The notes beneath the pieces were generated by a model. The model was not told where the DNA came from and searched no databases. It saw only the letters and a program-made list of their open reading frames with translations. Shown here one piece after another: positions 2,330 through 48,876 of a stretch of 64,000 nt of DNA. Every line of letters starts with the position of its first letter. The stretch's first letter is position 1. The DNA lies in NCBI RefSeq assembly GCF_054482525.1, contig NZ_CM137006.1. One strand, 5' to 3'. The translations under genes were made by a program, and so were the position numbers.

Positions 2330-3668
2330 CATAAGCGCTAACTTAAGGGTTGAACCATCTGAAGAATGCGACGCCTCGGTGCCTCGTTAAGACGATGCCT
2401 CGCGTTCTTCAATTGCGTTTTGTAGGCTGTCAGGGATACTGTCCCACGAATGGCCACCTGTAAGCTCCAGATGACCATTTTTGTTATTCTCCACAACGAG
2501 TTAGTTCTTCTTTTCGGATCCGGCACTTCTGGGGGGGAAATCCAGCGATGGCTGGATTATGTCGTCAATTAAAAATGCGGCGAGTAGATTAGCAAATATC
2601 CACGCTTTCGCGAGTTCAGGTTCCTTTGCACGCAAAGCATCCAGGTGCAGCAAACTTTTGAGCCGCTTAAAAGCCAGTTCAATTTGCCATCGCAGACGGT
2701 AACAATCAGCCACTTGCTCTGCTGAATATTCATCTTCCGGTAATGATGTTAGCAATAGCACATGGCCCGCTGCTTCCAGCGTTTCCGCCTGAACTACTCG
2801 TCCTTTTCGACGATTCTCGCTGAGCAGTCGGGTTTTACTGATTAATGCTTTTTCGGGAGGAAGTGATACGGCAATGAGACGTGCCGGAAAGGGAGCTCCG
2901 GCTTTTTTATTACCTGAATTGCCTATCATTACAGTGGTTTCACCGTTCTTACCGCAATCCAGCCCGCGCAGAAAACCCATCATGTCAAAGCGCATTCCTT
3001 CTGCAGTTAACCAGCGCAATCCTCGCCAGTGAACCCGGACGATATAATCAGCTTCTCCAAAAGCAAGTGAGCGGATACATTCGGGACGCGAACCGAATCC
3101 CCGGTCAGCAATGCGTATCTCGTCTGCCGTTTGCGCAAATCGGTCCAGCCGTTCAGCGTCTCTGCTGTCGGTTAGCTCAAAATCAGTGAACTGACAGGTA
3201 TGAGGATCATATCCCATATGTAGTCGCCATTCAGCGCTGCCGCCCCCGGGCGCACTGATTGCTGTTCCATCGACAAGACGCAATCTCTTTCCGCTTGTAC
3301 AACCCGTAACTGCGGCGCGTACAGCAAGTGTTTGTGCGGCAAGTATGCCAAACCAGTCGGCGGCATTCCGCAGCCGCTTCAGGAGAGCCACGTCAGATAA
3401 TGTTGCAACGTCATGGAGCTGAGCCCATGCAGTGACTTCACGTAATGACATCCCCCCGGGGCCGTAAGCCAGCCCCAGACGTAGCAGAGTTGCAGCATCA
3501 CGAATTTCGCGGCGGCGGGTTAGAGCCCCGGCATTACGTGCCGAAGTATCCAGTTCTTCGGGCTTACCAATATGGGCCAGAATTGCTGACCAGTTATCGT
3601 GAGAGTAATTCATCGGCACGTTAAATCATATCAGGCGTAATACCACAACCCTTAAGTTAGCGCTTATG
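2330..3668 (-). mobile_element. IS186 (IS4 family), copy 1, 1339 bp
   Basis: Terminal inverted repeats cataagcgctaacttaagggttg (2330-2352) and its reverse complement (3646-3668); flanked by direct repeat ggattactcc (10-bp target duplication) within a GGGG-N6-CCCC hotspot. Confidence 0.92.
2501..3619 (-). CDS. insL: IS186 transposase InsL
   Basis: 372-aa ORF MPMNYSHDNWSAILAHIGKPEEL... (canonical start probably at MNYSHD, 3613); identical protein to the copy-2 ORF. Confidence 0.92.
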   Translation of the reverse strand: MPMNYSHDNWSAILAHIGKPEELDTSARNAGALTRRREIRDAATLLRLGLAYGPGGMSLREVTAWAQLHDVATLSDVALLKRLRNAADWFGILAAQTLAVRAAVTGCTSGKRLRLVDGTAISAPGGGSAEWRLHMGYDPHTCQFTDFELTDSRDAERLDRFAQTADEIRIADRGFGSRPECIRSLAFGEADYIVRVHWRGLRWLTAEGMRFDMMGFLRGLDCGKNGETTVMIGNSGNKKAGAPFPARLIAVSLPPEKALISKTRLLSENRRKGRVVQAETLEAAGHVLLLTSLPEDEYSAEQVADCYRLRWQIELAFKRLKSLLHLDALRAKEPELAKAWIFANLLAAFLIDDIIQPSLDFPPRSAGSEKKN

Positions 3669-4181: not shown

Positions 4182-5520
4182 CATAAGCGCTAACTTAAGG
4201 GTTGTGGTATTACGCCTGATATGATTTAACGTGCCGATGAATTACTCTCACGATAACTGGTCAGCAATTCTGGCCCATATTGGTAAGCCCGAAGAACTGG
4301 ATACTTCGGCACGTAATGCCGGGGCTCTAACCCGCCGCCGCGAAATTCGTGATGCTGCAACTCTGCTACGTCTGGGGCTGGCTTACGGCCCCGGGGGGAT
4401 GTCATTACGTGAAGTCACTGCATGGGCTCAGCTCCATGACGTTGCAACATTATCTGACGTGGCTCTCCTGAAGCGGCTGCGGAATGCCGCCGACTGGTTT
4501 GGCATACTTGCCGCACAAACACTTGCTGTACGCGCCGCAGTTACGGGTTGTACAAGCGGAAAGAGATTGCGTCTTGTCGATGGAACAGCAATCAGTGCGC
4601 CCGGGGGCGGCAGCGCTGAATGGCGACTACATATGGGATATGATCCTCATACCTGTCAGTTCACTGATTTTGAGCTAACCGACAGCAGAGACGCTGAACG
4701 GCTGGACCGATTTGCGCAAACGGCAGACGAGATACGCATTGCTGACCGGGGATTCGGTTCGCGTCCCGAATGTATCCGCTCACTTGCTTTTGGAGAAGCT
4801 GATTATATCGTCCGGGTTCACTGGCGAGGATTGCGCTGGTTAACTGCAGAAGGAATGCGCTTTGACATGATGGGTTTTCTGCGCGGGCTGGATTGCGGTA
4901 AGAACGGTGAAACCACTGTAATGATAGGCAATTCAGGTAATAAAAAAGCCGGAGCTCCCTTTCCGGCACGTCTCATTGCCGTATCACTTCCTCCCGAAAA
5001 AGCATTAATCAGTAAAACCCGACTGCTCAGCGAGAATCGTCGAAAAGGACGAGTAGTTCAGGCGGAAACGCTGGAAGCAGCGGGCCATGTGCTATTGCTA
5101 ACATCATTACCGGAAGATGAATATTCAGCAGAGCAAGTGGCTGATTGTTACCGTCTGCGATGGCAAATTGAACTGGCTTTTAAGCGGCTCAAAAGTTTGC
5201 TGCACCTGGATGCTTTGCGTGCAAAGGAACCTGAACTCGCGAAAGCGTGGATATTTGCTAATCTACTCGCCGCATTTTTAATTGACGACATAATCCAGCC
5301 ATCGCTGGATTTCCCCCCCAGAAGTGCCGGATCCGAAAAGAAGAACTAACTCGTTGTGGAGAATAACAAAAATGGTCATCTGGAGCTTACAGGTGGCCAT
5401 TCGTGGGACAGTATCCCTGACAGCCTACAAAACGCAATTGAAGAACGCGAGGCATCGTCTTAACGAGGCACCGAGGCGTCGCATTCTTCAGATGGTTCAA
5501 CCCTTAAGTTAGCGCTTATG
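4182..5520 (+). mobile_element. IS186 (IS4 family), copy 2, 1339 bp, inverted relative to copy 1
   Basis: Same 23-bp terminal inverted repeats (4182-4204 and 5498-5520); same ggattactcc flanking duplication in a second copy of the hok 3-prime region; internal ORFs are identical to copy 1. Confidence 0.92.
4231..5349 (+). CDS. insL: IS186 transposase InsL
   Basis: 372-aa ORF identical to the 2501..3619 protein. Confidence 0.92.
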   Translation: MPMNYSHDNWSAILAHIGKPEELDTSARNAGALTRRREIRDAATLLRLGLAYGPGGMSLREVTAWAQLHDVATLSDVALLKRLRNAADWFGILAAQTLAVRAAVTGCTSGKRLRLVDGTAISAPGGGSAEWRLHMGYDPHTCQFTDFELTDSRDAERLDRFAQTADEIRIADRGFGSRPECIRSLAFGEADYIVRVHWRGLRWLTAEGMRFDMMGFLRGLDCGKNGETTVMIGNSGNKKAGAPFPARLIAVSLPPEKALISKTRLLSENRRKGRVVQAETLEAAGHVLLLTSLPEDEYSAEQVADCYRLRWQIELAFKRLKSLLHLDALRAKEPELAKAWIFANLLAAFLIDDIIQPSLDFPPRSAGSEKKN

Positions 5521-20339: not shown

Positions 20340-22576
20340 GTGGACTGGCTTCTTGATGTTTTTGCTACCTGGCTCTACGGCTTAAAAGTAATCGCGATAA
20401 CGTTAGCGGTCATCATGTTCATCAGCGGGCTGGACGATTTTTTTATTGATGTCGTCTACTGGGTACGCCGCATTAAACGCAAGTTGAGTGTTTATCGCCG
20501 CTACCCGCGAATGAGTTACCGCGAACTGTATAAACCAGATGAAAAACCGTTAGCGATTATGGTTCCGGCGTGGAATGAAACGGGCGTCATCGGCAATATG
20601 GCCGAGCTGGCGGCGACCACGCTCGACTATGAAAACTATCATATCTTTGTTGGCACCTACCCCAACGACCCCGATACTCAGCGTGATGTTGACGAAGTGT
20701 GCGCTCGCTTCCCAAACGTGCATAAGGTAGTCTGCGCGCGTCCTGGCCCCACCAGCAAAGCCGACTGCCTGAACAACGTGCTGGACGCCATCACCCAGTT
20801 TGAGCGTAGCGCCAATTTCGCATTTGCTGGTTTTATTCTGCATGACGCCGAAGATGTGATTTCACCGATGGAATTGCGTCTGTTCAACTATCTGGTCGAG
20901 CGTAAAGATCTGATTCAGATCCCGGTGTACCCATTCGAACGCGAATGGACGCACTTCACCAGCATGACTTACATTGATGAGTTTTCAGAACTGCATGGCA
21001 AAGATGTTCCGGTGCGTGAAGCCCTTGCCGGACAGGTGCCCAGCGCAGGCGTCGGCACCTGTTTCAGCCGCCGCGCCGTGACCGCACTGTTAGCTGACGG
21101 TGACGGTATTGCTTTCGACGTGCAGAGTCTTACTGAAGATTACGACATTGGTTTCCGCCTGAAAGAAAAAGGTATGACGGAAATTTTTGTCCGTTTTCCG
21201 GTGGTGGACGAAGCCAAAGAACGCGAGCAGCGTAAATTTTTACAGCACGCGCGGACGTCAAACATGATCTGCGTGCGCGAATATTTCCCCGATACCTTTT
21301 CGACTGCGGTTCGACAAAAATCTCGCTGGATCATCGGCATTGTTTTCCAGGGCTTTAAAACCCACAAATGGACCTCCAGTCTGACGCTGAACTACTTTCT
21401 CTGGCGCGACCGCAAAGGGGCAATCAGTAACTTTGTCAGCTTCCTCGCGATGCTGGTGATGATCCAGCTTTTGCTGTTGCTGGTGTATGAAAGTTTGTGG
21501 CCCGATGCCTGGCATTTCCTTTCTATTTTCAGCGGCAGCGCATGGTTAATGACTCTGCTGTGGCTAAACTTTGGCTTGATGATTAACCGCATCGTGCAGC
21601 GGGTGATTTTCGTTACTGGCTACTACGGCCTGACGCAGGGGCTGCTATCTGTCCTGCGTCTTTTCTGGGGCAACCTGATTAACTTCATGGCCAACTGGCG
21701 CGCGTTAAAACAGGTACTTCAACACGGCGATCCACGTCGCGTCGCGTGGGATAAAACAACGCATGACTTCCCCAGCGTGACTGGCGATACCCGCTCGTTG
21801 CGTCCGTTAGGTCAAATCCTGCTGGAAAATCAGGTCATCACTGAAGAACAACTCGATACAGCACTGCGTAATCGCGTCGAAGGTCTACGCCTGGGCGGTT
21901 CAATGCTGATGCAGGGGCTGATTAGCGCCGAACAGCTGGCACAGGCGCTGGCAGAGCAAAACGGCGTGGCGTGGGAATCCATCGACGCCTGGCAGATCCC
22001 GTCCTCGCTGATTGCCGAAATGCCGGCCTCCGTGGCGCTGCATTATGCAGTGCTGCCGCTGCGTCTGGAAAATGATGTGTTAATTGTCGGCAGTGAAGAT
22101 GGTATTGACCCGGTTTCGCTGGCAGCCCTGACGCGTAAAGTCGGACGCAAAGTGCGTTACGTCATTGTTCTGCGGGACAAATTGTCACGGGGTTACGTCA
22201 CTGGTATGCACGCCGACGCGGTCACGATCCGCGGGCAATGTTGTACAATGCGGTTCAGCATCAGTGGCTCACGGAACAGCAGGCCGGTGAAATCTGGCGG
22301 CAATATGTGCCGCATCAGTTCCTGTTCGCCGAAATACTGACCACGCTCGGTCATATTAATCGTTCAGCAATTAACGTGTTGTTATTGCGCCATGAACGCA
22401 GTTCTCTGCCGCTCGGCAAGTTTTTGGTCACCGAAGGCGTTATCAGCCAGGAAACGTTGGATCGCGTCCTGACAATTCAACGCGAATTACAAGTTTCGAT
22501 GCAATCACTATTACTCAAAGCAGGTTTAAACACAGAACAGGTTGCGCAACTGGAGTCCGAAAATGAAGGAGAATAA
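20340..22576 (+). pseudogene. nfrB: nfrB (phage N4 adsorption protein B, family 2 glycosyltransferase) with an apparent -1 frameshift near 22200-22240
   Basis: N-terminal 666-aa ORF (20340..22340) and C-terminal 112-aa ORF (22238..22576) are in different frames; total span is 2237 nt, not a multiple of 3; both parts read as one NfrB-like protein. Confidence 0.7.
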
Positions 22577-25535
22577 CCTTAATCGCGTCATCGGATGGTC
22601 TGGTTTACTGCTGACGTCTTTATTGAGTACCAGCGCACTCGCAGACAATATCGGCACCAGCGCAGAAGAGCTGGGGCTGAGCGATTATCGCCATTTTGTT
22701 ATTTATCCCCGTCTCGACAAGGCGCTGAAGGCACAGAAAAATAACGACGAAGCAACCGCCATCCGCGAATTTGAATATATACACCAGCAGGTGCCGGATA
22801 ATATTCCGCTAACTTTATACCTTGCGGAAGCCTATCGCCATTTTGGTCATGATGCCCGGGCGCGGCTGTTGCTTGAGGATCAACTGAAACGTCACCCAGG
22901 AGATGCCCGACTTGAGCGCAGTCTGGCGGCTATTCCAGTTGAAGTGAAAAGCGTTACGACTGTTGAAGAACTGCTTGCCCAGCAAAAAGCGTGCGACGCT
23001 GCGCCGACCCTGCGTTGTCGCAGTGAAGTTGGGCAGAATGCCCTGCGGCTGGCACAATTACCTGTCGCCAGAGCGCAACTGAACGATGCGACGTTTGCTG
23101 CATCGCCGGAAGGAAAAACGCTGCGAACCGATCTGCTGCAACGCGCAATCTACCTGAAACAATGGTCCCAGGCAGATACGCTATACAATGAAGCACGCCA
23201 GCAGAACACATTAAGCGCGGCAGAACGCCGCCAGTGGTTTGATGTGCTTCTTGCCGGGCAGCTGGACGATCGGATCCTGGCGCTGCAATCACAGGGGATC
23301 TTCACCGATCCTCAGTCATATATTACTTACGCGACCGCGCTGGCTTATCGTGGCGAAAAAGCACGCCTCCAGCGTTATCTCATTGAAAATACTCCGCTAT
23401 TTACCACGGACGCACAAGAGAAAAGTTGGCTCTATCTGTTATCTAAATACAGCGGCAACCCCGTTCAGGAGTTGGCGAATTATACGGTACAGTTTGCCGA
23501 CAACCGCCAGTATGTTGTTGGCGCGACGCTACCGGTGCTGTTAAAAGAAGGTCAGTACGACGCAGCGCAAAAACTGCTCGCCACCCTCCCCGCCAATGAA
23601 ATGCTTGAGGAGCGTTATACCGTTAGCGTAGCGACCCATAACAAGGCTGAAGCTCTGCGTCTGGCACGATTGCTGTATCAGCAAGAACCGGCAAATCTTA
23701 CCCGCCTGGATCAACTGACCTGGCAACTGATGCAGAACGAGCAGTCACGCGAAGCTGCCGATTTATTGCTGCAACGCTATCCTTTCCAGGGCGATGCGCG
23801 TGTCAGCCAGACTTTAATGGCGCGACTGGCGTCTCTGCTGGAAAGTCATCCTTACCTGGCAACGCCGGCGAAGGTGGCGATTTTATCGAAACCCTTACCG
23901 CTGGCGGAGCAACGTCAGTGGCAAAGTCAGTTGCCGGGTATTGCAGATAATTGCCCGGCAATAGTTCGCTTGCTGGGCGATATGTCGCCTTCCTACGATG
24001 CCGCCGCCTGGAACCGTCTGGCAAAGTGTTATCGGGACACGCTACCCGGTGTGGCGTTGTATGCATGGCTTCAGGCCGAACAACGACAACCGAACGCCTG
24101 GCAACATCGTGCGGTAGCCTATCAGGCGTATCAGGTTGAGGACTACGCCACCGCACTGGCGGCCTGGCAGAAAATCAGTCTTCACGACATGAGCAATGAG
24201 GATCTGCTTGCTGCTGCCAATACCGCCCAGGCGGCAGGAAATGGTGCGGCTCGCGATCGCTGGCTTCAGCAGGCAGAACAACGTGGGCTGGGAAACAATG
24301 CCCTCTACTGGTGGCTGCATGCGCAACGTTACATTCCTGGTCAGCCGGAACTCGCACTGAACGATCTCACGCGCTCAATCAATATTGCGCCTTCTGCCAA
24401 CGCTTACGTTGCGCGGGCGACAATTTATCGCCAACGTCATAATGTCCCGGCGGCGGTGAGTGATTTGCGCGCCGCTCTGGAACTGGAACCGAATAATAGC
24501 AACACCCAGGCAGCGCTCGGTTACGCCTTGTGGGATAGCGGTGATATCGCACAGTCGCGGGAAATGCTCGAACAGGCGCATAAAGGGCTACCGGACGATC
24601 CGGCACTTATCCGACAACTGGCCTACGTGAACCAGCGTCTGGATGACATGCCTGCGACGCAGCACTACGCCCGGCTGGTGATTGATGACATTGATAATCA
24701 GGCGCTGATAACCCCACTGACCCCAGAGCAAAATCAGCAACGCTTCAATTTCCGCCGTCTGCATGAGGAGGTCGGTCGCCGCTGGACGTTCAGTTTCGAT
24801 TCTTCTATCGGCTTGCGTTCCGGCGCAATGAGTACCGCTAACAATAATGTCGGCGGCGCAGCGCCAGGGAAAAGCTATCGTAGCTACGGGCAACTGGAAG
24901 CCGAGTACCGTATCGGACGCAATATGCTGCTGGAAGGCGACCTGCTCTCAGTTTATAGCCGCGTCTTTGCCGATACCGGTGAAAACGGGGTGATGATGCC
25001 GGTGAAAAATCCGATGTCCGGCACCGGTCTGCGCTGGAAGCCGCTGCGCGATCAGATCGTTTTCCTCGCCGTCGAACAGCAGTTGCCGCTGAACGGGCAA
25101 AATGGCGCATCCGATACCATGCTGCGCGCCAGCGCCTCATTCTTTAATGGCGGCAAATACAGCGACGAATGGCACCCGAACGGTTCAGGCTGGTTTGCCC
25201 AAAACCTGTACCTCGATGCGGCGCAATATGTCCGCCAGGATATTCAGGCGTGGACGGCAGATTATCGCGTAAGCTGGCATCAGAAGGTGGCGAACGGACA
25301 GACTATTGAGCCTTACGCTCACGTTCAGGACAACGGTTATCGTGATAAAGGCACTCAGGGCGCGCAGCTTGGCGGTGTCGGGGTCCGCTGGAATATCTGG
25401 ACCGGCGAGACGCACTACGACGCCTGGCCGCACAAACTCAGTCTCGGCATCGAATATCAACATACCTTTAAGGCGATTAATCAACGTAACGGAGAGCGCA
25501 ACAACGCGTTTCTCACCATTGGAGTGCACTGGTAA
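22563..25535 (+). CDS. nfrA: Phage N4 receptor outer membrane protein NfrA
   Basis: 990 codons from MKENNLNRVIGWSGLLLTSLLSTSALA (signal peptide); TPR-like region and C-terminal beta-barrel-like segment. Confidence 0.9.
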   Translation: MKENNLNRVIGWSGLLLTSLLSTSALADNIGTSAEELGLSDYRHFVIYPRLDKALKAQKNNDEATAIREFEYIHQQVPDNIPLTLYLAEAYRHFGHDARARLLLEDQLKRHPGDARLERSLAAIPVEVKSVTTVEELLAQQKACDAAPTLRCRSEVGQNALRLAQLPVARAQLNDATFAASPEGKTLRTDLLQRAIYLKQWSQADTLYNEARQQNTLSAAERRQWFDVLLAGQLDDRILALQSQGIFTDPQSYITYATALAYRGEKARLQRYLIENTPLFTTDAQEKSWLYLLSKYSGNPVQELANYTVQFADNRQYVVGATLPVLLKEGQYDAAQKLLATLPANEMLEERYTVSVATHNKAEALRLARLLYQQEPANLTRLDQLTWQLMQNEQSREAADLLLQRYPFQGDARVSQTLMARLASLLESHPYLATPAKVAILSKPLPLAEQRQWQSQLPGIADNCPAIVRLLGDMSPSYDAAAWNRLAKCYRDTLPGVALYAWLQAEQRQPNAWQHRAVAYQAYQVEDYATALAAWQKISLHDMSNEDLLAAANTAQAAGNGAARDRWLQQAEQRGLGNNALYWWLHAQRYIPGQPELALNDLTRSINIAPSANAYVARATIYRQRHNVPAAVSDLRAALELEPNNSNTQAALGYALWDSGDIAQSREMLEQAHKGLPDDPALIRQLAYVNQRLDDMPATQHYARLVIDDIDNQALITPLTPEQNQQRFNFRRLHEEVGRRWTFSFDSSIGLRSGAMSTANNNVGGAAPGKSYRSYGQLEAEYRIGRNMLLEGDLLSVYSRVFADTGENGVMMPVKNPMSGTGLRWKPLRDQIVFLAVEQQLPLNGQNGASDTMLRASASFFNGGKYSDEWHPNGSGWFAQNLYLDAAQYVRQDIQAWTADYRVSWHQKVANGQTIEPYAHVQDNGYRDKGTQGAQLGGVGVRWNIWTGETHYDAWPHKLSLGIEYQHTFKAINQRNGERNNAFLTIGVHW

Positions 25536-26426
25536 ATGCGTAAGTTCATTTTCGTATTGCTGACACTGCTTTTGGTCAGCCCTTTTTCCTTTGCGATGAA
25601 AGGTATTATCTGGCAGCCACAAAACCGTGATAGTCAGGTTACCGATACCCAGTGGCAGGGGCTGATGAGTCAGTTACGTTTGCAAGGCTTCGATACCCTG
25701 GTTTTGCAATGGACCCGTTACGGCGATGCATTCACCCAGCCAGAACAGCGCGCGTTATTGTTTAAGCGTGCCGCAGCTGCGCAACAGGCTGGCCTGAAGC
25801 TGATTGTCGGGCTGAATGCCGATCCGGAATTTTTTATGCACCAGAAACAGTCATCCGCGGCGCTGGAAAGCTATCTTAACCGCCTGCTGGCTGCCGATCT
25901 CCAGCAAGCCAGATTATGGAGCGCCGTACCTGGCGTAACGCCGGATGGCTGGTACATCAGCGCGGAAATTGACGACCTGAACTGGCGCAGCGAAGCCGCC
26001 CGTCAGCCTTTGCTGACATGGTTAAACAACGCGCAGCGGTTGATTAGCGATGTTTCAGCAAAACCGGTTTATATCAGTAGTTTTTTCGCCGGAAACATGT
26101 CGCCCGATGGCTATCGCCAACTGCTGGAACACGTTAAAACAACCGGCGTTAATGTCTGGGTACAGGATGGCAGCGGCGTGAATAAACTTACCGCTGAACA
26201 GCGTGAACGTTATCTACAGGCCAGCGCCGATTGCCAAAGTTCCGCCCCTGCCAGCGGCATTGTTTATGAACTGTTTGTCGCCGGCAAAGGCAAAACCTTT
26301 ACAGCGAAACCGAAACCGGATGCAGAGATCGCCTCGCTGTTAGCGAAACGTTCCTCTTGCGGTAAAGACACGCTCTATTTCTCTCTGCGCTATTTGCCCG
26401 TTGCGCACGGCATTCTCGAGTATTAA
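25536..26426 (+). CDS. ybcH: Uncharacterised exported protein YbcH
   Basis: 296-aa ORF with signal peptide, start overlapping the nfrA stop. Confidence 0.85.
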   Translation: MRKFIFVLLTLLLVSPFSFAMKGIIWQPQNRDSQVTDTQWQGLMSQLRLQGFDTLVLQWTRYGDAFTQPEQRALLFKRAAAAQQAGLKLIVGLNADPEFFMHQKQSSAALESYLNRLLAADLQQARLWSAVPGVTPDGWYISAEIDDLNWRSEAARQPLLTWLNNAQRLISDVSAKPVYISSFFAGNMSPDGYRQLLEHVKTTGVNVWVQDGSGVNKLTAEQRERYLQASADCQSSAPASGIVYELFVAGKGKTFTAKPKPDAEIASLLAKRSSCGKDTLYFSLRYLPVAHGILEY

Positions 26427-46832: not shown

Positions 46833-47155
46833 TTATTGAGACAGGACTTTCTTATGATTACACATTTTCGTCAAGCCATAGAAGAAACGCTGCCCTGGCT
46901 TTCCTCTTTTGGCGCTGACCCAACGGGTGGGATGACCCGTTTACTTTATTCGCCGGAATGGCTGGAAACTCAGCAGCAATTTAAAAAAAGAATGGCAGCA
47001 AGCGGGCTGGAAACACGTTTCGATGAAGTGGGGAATTTATATGGTCGCCTGAGTGGCACCGAATATCCACAAGAAGTGGTTCTGAGCGGTTCGCATATCG
47101 GGTGATGCTGCCAACTTACTGATTTAGTGTATGATGGTGTTTTTGAGGTGCTCCA

Positions 47156-47431
47156 GTGGCTTCTGTTTCTATCAGCTGTCCCTCCTGTTCAGCTACTGAC
47201 GGGGTGGTGCGTAACGGCAAAAGCACCGCCGGACATCAGCGCTATCTCTGCTCTCACTGCCGTAAAACATGGCAACTGCAGTTCACTTACACCGCTTCTC
47301 AACCCGGTACGCACCAGAAAATCATTGATATGGCCATGAATGGCGTTGGATGCCGGGCAACTGCCCGCATTATGGGCGTTGGCCTCAACACGATTTTACG
47401 TCACTTAAAAAACTCAGGCCGCAGTCGGTAA
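47156..47431 (+). CDS. insA: IS1 protein InsA
   Basis: 91-aa [43 protein letters not shown]... Confidence 0.93.
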
Positions 47432-47853
47432 CCTCGCGCATACAGCCGGGCAGTGACGTCATCGTCTGCGCGGAAATGGACGAACAGTGGGGCTATGTCG
47501 GGGCTAAATCGCGCCAGCGCTGGCTGTTTTACGCGTATGACAGTCTCCGGAAGACGGTTGTTGCGCACGTATTCGGTGAACGCACTATGGCGACGCTGGG
47601 GCGTCTTATGAGCCTGCTGTCACCCTTTGACGTGGTGATATGGATGACGGATGGCTGGCCGCTGTATGAATCCCGCCTGAAGGGAAAGCTGCACGTAATC
47701 AGCAAGCGATATACGCAGCGAATTGAGCGGCATAACCTGAATCTGAGGCAGCACCTGGCACGGCTGGGACGGAAGTCGCTGTCGTTCTCAAAATCGGTGG
47801 AGCTGCATGACAAAGTCATCGGGCATTATCTGAACATAAAACACTATCAATAA
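47350..47853 (+). CDS. insB: IS1 InsB reading frame (expressed as InsAB-prime by -1 frameshifting)
   Basis: 167-aa ORF in the -1 frame overlapping the insA 3-prime end. Confidence 0.88.
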
Positions 47854-48876
47854 GTTGGAGTCATTACCCGCATATCGATACCGTGGTTAACGGCGGTAAC
47901 CTCGACGGGCAATTCGGCGCGCTGGCGGCGTGGCTGGCAATTGACTGGTTGAAAACGCAATACGGCGCGCCGTTACGTACGGTCGAAGTGGTGGCGATGG
48001 CAGAAGAAGAAGGCAGCCGCTTCCCGTATGTCTTCTGGGGCAGTAAAAATATCTTTGGGCTGGCGAATCCTGACGACGTGCGGAATATCTGTGATGCCAA
48101 AGGAAATAGTTTTGTCGATGCGATGAAGGCTTGCGGATTTACTCTGCCGAACGCCCCACTAACTCCGCGTCAGGATATTAAAGCCTTTGTCGAACTGCAT
48201 ATCGAACAGGGCTGTGTGCTGGAAAGTAATGGGCAGTCAATTGGCGTGGTGAATGCAATTGTCGGGCAGCGTCGTTATACGGTGACGCTGAATGGCGAAT
48301 CAAACCATGCAGGCACCACGCCGATGGGTTATCGTCGTGATACGGTTTACGCTTTCAGTCGCATTTGCCATCAGTCGATCGAAAAAGCGAAAAAGATGGG
48401 CGACCCGCTGGTGCTGACCTTTGGCAAGGTGGAGCCGCGCCCGAATACGGTGAATGTGGTACCGGGTAAAACCACGTTCACCATTGATTGTCGTCATACC
48501 AACGCTGCCGTGCTGCGCGATTTCACCCAGCAGTTAGAAAACGACATGCGGGCGATTTGCGATGAAATGGACATTGGTATTGATATCGATTTATGGATGG
48601 ACGAAGAACCCGTGCCGATGAATAAGGACCTGGTCGCCACCCTGACAGAATTGTGTGAAAGAGAAAAACTGAATTACCGGGTGATGCACAGTGGTGCCGG
48701 GCACGACGCGCAAATTTTCGCGCCTCGCGTACCAACCTGCATGATTTTTATCCCCAGCATCAACGGGATCAGCCATAACCCGGCGGAACGCACCAATATT
48801 ACCGACCTTGCCGAAGGGGTCAAAACGTTGGCACTCATGCTTTATCAACTTGCCTGGCAGAAATAAGGAGTCATAA

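What the first reader, a model, noticed from the sequence alone, without database searches (positions are those of the whole stretch)
22190..22340. Apparent frameshift in nfrB (phage N4 adsorption glycosyltransferase)
The nfrB reading frame switches by one nucleotide near 22200-22240. The sensible translation moves from frame 0 (..RKVRYVIVLRDKLSRGYVTGMHADAVTIRG) to the next frame (MLYNAVQHQWLTEQQAG...ESENEGE), and the 20340-22576 span is 2237 nt. If real, the strain lacks functional NfrB and should resist N4-like phages; it could also be a homopolymer sequencing error at cgcgggcaatg.
Basis: partly seen in the sequence, partly recalled or inferred. Interest (0 to 1): 0.4.

Follow-up and report, generated by a model that had tools for sequence, protein, structure and literature searches.

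The report
One-base deletion disrupts E. coli nfrB
This E. coli strain has lost one G from a run of four in nfrB, the gene that makes the surface sugar phage N4 uses to attach; the lesion looks real but is an ordinary, already familiar kind of receptor-gene loss.

Summary
Compared with intact nfrB from the closest complete genomes and from K-12, the window lacks one G. It has GGG at 22174-22176 where the references have GGGG (CTG CGG GGA CAA). The product keeps NfrB residues 1-612, adds 54 out-of-frame residues, and stops at 22338-22340.

This is the only small indel in about 60 kb compared with two close relatives. The exact 666-aa product is called on 9 contigs assembled from independent public sequencing runs, and the three I fetched match the window base for base. 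A sequencing error is therefore unlikely.

None of 5,061 complete E. coli genomes carries the allele. The rest of nfrB, plus nfrA and ybcH, is identical to an intact relative, so the lesion is recent and lineage-specific.

[quoted passage not shown] Loss of function, and so resistance to phage N4, is likely but untested.

Disrupted nfrB alleles are common in nature and already reported. Verdict: a genuine but ordinary pseudogene, of low interest.

The parts
20340..22576 (+). nfrB locus (frameshifted; 2237 nt instead of 2238)
   Evidence: Apart from one missing G, it is 100% identical to intact nfrB of WP8-S18-ESBL-07 and 19KM1776. Pfam finds GT2 at residues 70-382 and MshEN at 542-617.
22174..22176 (+). 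The lesion: GGG where the closest relatives and K-12 have GGGG (codons 612/613, CTG CGG GGA CAA). A 1-nt deletion in a G4 run.
   Evidence: It is the single gap in alignment A1. It is the only indel against 19KM1776 and against PCN033. None of 5,061 complete genomes carries it.
20340..22340 (+). Truncated product ORF: NfrB residues 1-612, then 54 out-of-frame residues (22176-22337), then TGA at 22338-22340
   Evidence: The exact 666-aa protein is present in NCBI, ENA and Logan records.
22178..22576 (+). Orphaned native-frame 3' remnant encoding NfrB residues 614-745. It covers the closing MshEN helix and the C-terminal helical module. Gene callers call parts of it as 112-aa or 89-aa ORFs.
   Evidence: It is identical to the intact allele over 403 nt. 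The module is conserved in 19 divergent homologs. Profile comparison relates it to the MshEN tandem motifs.
22563..25535 (+). nfrA (outer-membrane partner), intact. Its start overlaps the native nfrB end by 14 nt. The new stop lies 222 nt upstream of the nfrA ATG.
   Evidence: Identical over 2973 nt to nfrA of 19KM1776. Start context with GGAG shown. The 14-nt overlap is described in PMC8669469.
25536..26426 (+). ybcH (third gene of the nfrBA-ybcH operon), intact
   Evidence: Identical over 891 nt to ybcH of 19KM1776.

Best explanation
A genuine, recent, lineage-specific deletion of one G from a four-G run (window 22174-22176; CGG GGA becomes CGG GA) has turned nfrB into a pseudogene. The most plausible origin is replication slippage, which is an inference. 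Translation keeps NfrB residues 1-612, reads 54 wrong-frame codons and stops at 22338-22340. The product keeps the glycosyltransferase domain, the membrane helices and the published c-di-GMP contact residues (L490, G491, G519, L537). It loses the closing helix of the MshEN domain (residues 614-623) and the whole conserved helical C-terminal module (about 631-744). The likely result, also inferred, is an unstable or non-activatable enzyme. That would mean no N4 glycan receptor and resistance to phage N4 and relatives that need NfrB. nfrA expression may also be reduced, because its translation is no longer coupled to that of nfrB.
For: Shown:
- There is a single gap against intact alleles, at the G run.
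- It is the only small indel in about 60 kb. The window differs from 19KM1776 by 5 substitutions and from PCN033 by 60. Its 67 G4 runs and all A/T/C/G runs of 5-7 bases show no other length difference from the two relatives.
- The exact 666-aa product is called on 9 contigs from separate run assemblies, including ERR12355647, ERR12328294 and SRR30479802. The three I fetched are 100% identical to the window over 5.8-8 kb and carry GGG. The protein is recorded from NCBI, ENA and Logan sources.
- The rest of nfrB, nfrA, ybcH and the upstream intergenic region are identical to the intact relative, so there has been no secondary decay.
- The cut falls inside a folded domain. The AlphaFold model has pLDDT 94. 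The last MshEN strand is at 604-610 and the closing helix at 614-623. The model matches complete MshEN domains of about 140 residues bound to c-di-GMP (5htl, 8pdk).
- Residues 613-745 are retained in 19 homologs of 31-61% identity, with conserved motif columns L667, G671, G693 and L696.

From the literature:
- NfrB glycosyltransferase activity and c-di-GMP binding are both required for N4 infection, and deleting nfrB abolishes plating (PMC8669469, PMC8669472).
- Natural nfrB disruptions are reported.
- Phage exposure selects frameshift or stop mutations in nfrB (bioRxiv 10.1101/2024.11.29.626071).
Against: - No experiment or read-level data were available for this strain.
- The 9 contigs could come from one clone, or even partly from re-sequencing of one isolate. 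They show the allele is real, not that it arose more than once.
- The catalytic domain and the mapped c-di-GMP contact residues are intact, so residual or altered activity is not excluded.
- Many family members in the representative search are shorter and align only to about residue 480-630. The C-terminal module is therefore not universally needed by this kind of enzyme.
- nfrA has its own GGAG ribosome-binding site 8 nt upstream of its ATG, so polarity may be slight.
Confidence: 0.8

Rival explanations
1. Sequencing or assembly error: the genome really has GGGG and nfrB is intact.
For: The lesion is a one-base change in homopolymer length, the classic error of some platforms. No complete RefSeq genome shares it. 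The gene is otherwise pristine, which is also what an artefact would look like.
Against: It is the only indel in about 60 kb against two relatives. No other homopolymer run, including 19 A7/T7 runs, differs in length from the two relatives. The identical allele appears in assemblies of several independent runs with ERR and SRR accessions, and in NCBI and ENA records. A four-base run is short for a systematic error.
Confidence: 0.06
2. The deletion is real, but the truncated protein keeps some function or gains an altered one. It might retain partial activity or become independent of c-di-GMP, so the strain still makes some N4 receptor glycan.
For: The GT2 domain, both membrane helices and the four-helix c-di-GMP-binding unit with L490, G491, G519 and L537 are retained. 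Many homologs naturally end at about 480-630 residues.
Against: The cut removes a secondary-structure element of the MshEN α/β subdomain and appends 54 unrelated residues. That usually destabilises a protein. The lost module is conserved across homologs down to 31% identity. Point mutations in the regulatory domain alone can abolish N4 infection.
Confidence: 0.12
3. Regulated expression: the G run is a phase-variable switch, or the frameshift is bypassed by programmed ribosomal frameshifting.
For: The site is a homopolymer, and the gene encodes a phage-receptor function, a typical target of phase variation. A -1 shift at CGG-GAC would restore the native sequence exactly (from reading the sequence).
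Against: The run is only 3-4 bases long. None of 5,061 genomes shows a different run length. PCN033 has CGCGGA at this spot with no run at all. There is no X XXY YYZ slippery heptamer anywhere in the two-frame overlap. All relatives encode a single 745-codon frame.
Confidence: 0.02

Closest known systems
Laboratory nfrB null mutants of E. coli K-12 (the nfr 'N four resistance' mutants; ΔnfrB in PMC8669469 and PMC8669472)
   Same: The same gene in the same nfrB-nfrA-ybcH operon. The expected phenotype is loss of the NfrB-made glycan and no N4 adsorption or plating.
   Different: Those are deletions, insertions or active-site point mutants with measured phenotypes. This is a natural C-terminal frameshift at codon 613 that leaves the catalytic domain intact, and its phenotype is untested.
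Natural nfrB/dgcJ disruptions in E. coli strains (Sellner et al. 2021, PMC8669472: IS elements, deletions or premature stops, for example in all B strains)
   Same: A natural loss-type allele of the N4 receptor pathway in a wild E. coli lineage. Public data hold many others: truncations at residues 550 and 544 on 130 and 36 contigs, and an 89-aa C-terminal remnant ORF on 845 contigs.
   Different: This lesion has a different position and mechanism. The G4-to-G3 allele is absent from all 5,061 complete genomes examined and was seen on only 9 contigs.
Phage-selected nfrB frameshift or stop mutants (bioRxiv 10.1101/2024.11.29.626071)
   Same: Frameshift or stop mutations in nfrB that give phage resistance and can be complemented by wild-type nfrB.
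   Different: Those arose under deliberate phage selection in the laboratory. Here, selection by phage is only a hypothesis.
Homopolymer phase-variable (contingency) loci of surface structures
   Same: A change in homopolymer length switches off a surface-structure gene.
   Different: The run is far too short (4 bases) and is invariant across the species. This is a one-off mutation, not a switch.

Membership tests
NfrB (c-di-GMP-activated GT2-MshEN glycosyltransferase) | Family-2 glycosyltransferase domain with DxD, TED and QxxRW signatures | tested here: met
   Pfam finds Glyco_trans_2_3 and Glyco_tranf_2_3 at residues 70-382 in the window's product. D169, D171, T265-E266-D267 and Q326/R329/W330 are invariant or nearly invariant in the 20-homolog alignment. 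The window is identical to the intact allele up to residue 612.
NfrB (c-di-GMP-activated GT2-MshEN glycosyltransferase) | c-di-GMP-binding tandem 24-residue motifs of the MshEN domain (L490, G491, G519, L537) | tested here: met
   The motifs lie upstream of the frameshift. G491, L518 and G519 are nearly invariant. The residues were mapped experimentally in PMC8669469 and PMC8669472.
NfrB (c-di-GMP-activated GT2-MshEN glycosyltransferase) | Complete MshEN fold (about 140 residues, NfrB about 487-625) and the full 745-residue frame | tested here: not met
   The frame is lost after R612. The closing helix (614-623) and residues 624-745 are missing from the product. MshE 5htl aligns to NfrB 488-623. 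The locus is therefore nfrB by descent, but its product is not a complete NfrB.
NfrB (c-di-GMP-activated GT2-MshEN glycosyltransferase) | Operon context nfrB-nfrA-ybcH, with nfrA overlapping the nfrB end by 14 nt | tested here: met
   nfrA (22563-25535) and ybcH (25536-26426) are identical to those of 19KM1776. The overlap geometry matches PMC8669469.
NfrB (c-di-GMP-activated GT2-MshEN glycosyltransferase) | Function: synthesis of the N4 glycan receptor, giving N4 sensitivity | not testable with these tools
   This needs plating or adsorption assays.
Frameshifted pseudogene (real mutation) | A single indel relative to intact orthologs, seen again in independent sequencing | tested here: met
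   One gap only. The same allele is present in contigs from separate runs.
Phase-variable contingency locus | Long simple-sequence tract whose length varies between and within strains | tested here: not met
   The tract is 3-4 bases long. None of 5,061 genomes has the G3 allele. PCN033 has an interrupted tract.
Programmed -1 ribosomal frameshift | Slippery heptamer in the overlap, and the two-frame arrangement conserved in relatives | tested here: not met
   There is no X XXY YYZ heptamer in 22139-22335. All relatives have one continuous frame.

The most novel reading that the evidence does not exclude
The allele could be an adaptive loss fixed in a circulating phylogroup-D-like clone. The driver would be N4-like phage pressure or the cost of making the glycan. 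It would then act as a natural separation-of-function mutant. It keeps the known c-di-GMP-binding unit but deletes a second MshEN-N-like tandem-motif unit (residues about 662-714) that the two 2021 papers on NfrB leave undescribed or call a 'domain of unknown function'. If that second unit binds c-di-GMP or relays activation, this strain would show that it is required.
Probability: 0.12. Interest if true: 0.35.

Novelty: already known. Interest (0 to 1): 0.12.

Why it matters
It matters only modestly. If the truncation is a null allele, this lineage should be non-permissive for phage N4 and other NfrB-dependent phages. That is relevant to host-range prediction and to choosing therapeutic phages. 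It also adds one more case of natural erosion of a conserved phage-receptor pathway.

The practical lesson for annotation is about locating frameshifts. The indel lies at the start of the stretch where both frames are open, not where the downstream frame first offers an ATG.

One side result may interest people working on c-di-GMP effectors. The part of NfrB lost here contains a second MshEN-like tandem motif.

Tried and rejected
That stretch is identical in the window, WP8-S18-ESBL-07 and MG1655.
- Error-prone assembly: rejected. There are no other indels in about 60 kb against two relatives.
- Looking for the allele in 5,426 complete E. coli genomes: none found. The source genome is therefore not in that collection.
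- Word-indexed protein search with full-length NfrB: saturated by near-identical E. coli entries and useless for distant homologs. The 50%-representative search replaced it.
- Pairwise BLASTP between the MshEN motif region and the lost C-terminal region: no hit.
- Pfam on the lost 133 residues alone: only a sub-threshold DUF4388 match. Only the profile-profile comparison revealed the repeat.
- Literature search for structural or truncation data on the NfrB C-terminus: nothing beyond the two 2021 papers and reviews.
- Programmed frameshift: no slippery heptamer.
- Scans of metagenome contigs and genome contigs were not run. The exact-protein look-up had already answered whether the allele exists elsewhere.

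Full report
**What is at the coordinates.** The ORF list shows nfrB split into two overlapping frames. One runs 20340..22340 (666 aa, GTG start) and the other 22238..22576 (112 aa). nfrA follows at 22563..25535 and ybcH at 25536..26426. The 20340-22576 span is 2237 nt. In a megablast against 5,426 complete E. coli genomes, every listed full-length hit spans 2238 nt in its record. That includes the ten hits reported as 100.0% identical. RefSeq annotates the region as 'cyclic di-3',5'-guanylate-activated glycosyltransferase NfrB'.

**Where the indel really is.**
- I aligned window 22100-22400 with the intact alleles of strain WP8-S18-ESBL-07 and of MG1655. There is exactly one gap. The window reads CTGC-GGG-ACAA with GGG at 22174-22176, where both references read GGGG.
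- A base-by-base comparison with the closest complete genome (strain 19KM1776) places the gap at the same spot.
- In protein terms R612 is retained and G613 becomes D. Then 54 wrong-frame residues follow, and a TGA at 22338-22340 ends the product.
Native NfrB reads 'GQIVTGLRHWYARRRGHDPRA'.
- The error is understandable. Both frames are open from 22139 to 22337, so the sequence alone does not fix the switch point.

**Real mutation or sequencing error?** Three lines of evidence point to a real mutation.
- *The window is otherwise clean.* Over about 60 kb shared with 19KM1776 there are 5 substitutions and this single indel. Against PCN033 there are 60 substitutions and again only this indel. No other homopolymer run differs in length from the two relatives. 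That covers 67 G4 runs, all runs of 5-7 bases and the 19 A7/T7 runs.
- *The allele is seen elsewhere.* The exact 666-aa product is called on 9 contigs from assemblies of separate public sequencing runs, including ERR12355647, ERR12328294 and SRR30479802. The three loci I fetched are 100% identical to the window over 5.8-8 kb and contain the GGG allele. The exact-sequence look-up also records the protein from NCBI, ENA and Logan sources.
- *The site is not intrinsically unstable.* None of 5,061 complete genomes holding this segment has GGG. The best match is 98.8%, which is one gap in 82 columns. PCN033 has CGC GGA here, with no run at all.

I put a sequencing artefact at about 6%. One caveat remains. 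The 9 contigs may all come from one clone, so they show that the allele is real, not that it arose more than once.

**Age.** Apart from the missing G, nfrB is identical to the intact allele of 19KM1776 (1834 nt upstream and 403 nt downstream of the gap). nfrA (2973 nt), ybcH (891 nt) and the cusS-nfrB intergenic region are also identical. There is no secondary decay, so the lesion is recent and lineage-specific.

**What is lost.**
- Pfam places GT2 at residues 70-382 and MshEN at 542-628 in intact NfrB. The window's product keeps GT2 and a shortened MshEN match, 542-617.
- PDB sequence matches align the complete MshEN domains of MshE (5htl) and of PilB/PilF to NfrB 487-625.
- I modelled NfrB 480-745 with AlphaFold from an alignment of 20 divergent homologs. 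The model has pLDDT 94.1 and pTM 0.89. It shows four helices (490-541) followed by an α/β subdomain whose last strand is 604-610 and whose closing helix is 614-623. An eight-helix module follows at 631-744.
- Foldseek matches the model to complete MshEN/GSPII-B domains of about 140 residues bound to c-di-GMP (5htl TM 0.75, 8pdk TM 0.71).
- The frameshift therefore cuts inside a folded domain, between its last strand and its closing helix. It also deletes the whole C-terminal module and adds 54 unrelated residues.
- The experimentally mapped c-di-GMP contact residues (L490, G491, G519, L537; PMC8669469 and PMC8669472) lie upstream of the cut and are retained.

**Is the lost part important?**
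- A search of 1.84 billion representative proteins found many homologs of 31-62% identity and about 727-760 aa that align out to residues 715-743.
- In an alignment of 19 such proteins, residues 613-745 are at least 82% aligned in every one. Mean identity to E. coli is 23.7%, against 49.5% for the GT2 domain. Columns L667, G671, G693 and L696 are invariant or nearly invariant.
- Pairwise BLASTP and Pfam on that segment alone missed this relationship.
- The module that Sellner et al. call a 'domain of unknown function' therefore looks like a second MshEN-N-like unit. Junkermeier and Hengge do not mention it.
- This supports the module having a function but does not prove it is essential. Many family members are shorter, aligning only to about residue 480-630.

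**Likely consequence (inferred).** NfrB makes the exopolysaccharide that phage N4 uses as its first receptor. Its glycosyltransferase activity and its c-di-GMP binding are both required, and deleting nfrB abolishes plating (PMC8669469, PMC8669472). A protein with a broken regulatory domain and a nonsense tail is most likely unstable or cannot be activated. I therefore expect loss of the glycan and N4 resistance, with about 80% confidence given that the allele is real. Residual or deregulated activity remains possible, at about 12%. The new stop lies 222 nt upstream of the nfrA start, which normally overlaps the nfrB end by 14 nt. Translational coupling is therefore lost. nfrA has its own GGAG ribosome-binding site 8 nt upstream of the ATG, so any polarity may be mild.

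**Alternatives rejected.** Phase variation and programmed frameshifting are both very unlikely.
- The run is only 3-4 bases long and is invariant across the species.
- There is no slippery heptamer in the two-frame overlap.
- All relatives encode one continuous 745-codon frame.

**Comparison with what is known.**
- Sellner et al. state that some E. coli strains, including all B strains, carry IS elements, deletions or premature stops in nfrB or dgcJ.
- Laboratory phage selection yields frameshift or stop mutations in nfrB.
- Public protein data contain many other disrupted forms. Truncations at residues 550 and 544 occur on 130 and 36 contigs, including complete chromosomes. A 670-aa internal-deletion form occurs on hundreds of contigs. 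The same 89-aa C-terminal remnant ORF is called on 845 contigs.
- This allele is therefore one more instance of a familiar process, and the exact protein is already in public databases.

**Verdict.** This is a genuine but ordinary frameshifted nfrB. Novelty: already known. Interest: low (0.12).

Noticed in passing
window 47101-47868 (flanks 46836-47105 and 47883-48866): A 768-bp IS1 (insA/insB-type ORFs) is inserted in allC, the allantoate deiminase gene, at about codon 85. It has a 9-bp target duplication, CGCATATCG. Both close relatives have an intact allC, so this is a second gene inactivation specific to this lineage.
   Followed up: yes
window 2331-3667 and 4183-5519: Two 1337-bp IS4-family elements, IS186-like by size, sit in opposite orientations. 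Each is inserted at the same site (flanking repeat GGGATTACTCCC) of one of two tandem hokE repeat units. Both are absent from strain 19KM1776. Conversely, 19KM1776 has an IS200C between ybdG and pheP that the window lacks.
   Followed up: partly
window 28302, 42589, 46368: Three substitutions are derived in the window's lineage, differing from both 19KM1776 and PCN033. All three are non-synonymous: fimZ G190R, ylbE P401S and allD P196S. Together with the nfrB frameshift and the IS1 in allC, this suggests very recent clonal change with little purifying selection, and possibly decay of the allantoin pathway.
   Followed up: partly
window 22322-22480 (native-frame codons for NfrB about 662-714); alignments A2/A3: [quoted passage not shown] In E. 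coli the first motif of this second unit is degenerate (FAEIL instead of LGxxL), while homologs keep both motifs. It could be a second ligand or relay site.
   Followed up: partly
proteins P0102, P0105, P0107 (related loci, not in the window): A 670-aa NfrB form is widespread, on 104, 330 and 233 contigs, and includes Shigella. It matches NfrB 1-472 and 516-745, so it lacks about 75 residues around the first c-di-GMP motif (L490/G491). This may be a common natural regulatory-domain variant.
   Followed up: partly
protein P0060 and relatives; locus L001 1-3000: Many E. coli contigs (527 for P0060) encode a 1268-aa ORF in which NfrB residues 45-745 are preceded by about 566 residues with PAAR/Rhs-type Pfam domains. 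In WP8-S18-ESBL-07 the region upstream of nfrB holds an ISEc1 transposase gene and hypothetical genes instead of cusS. The nfrB upstream junction appears to be a hotspot for rearrangement.
   Followed up: no
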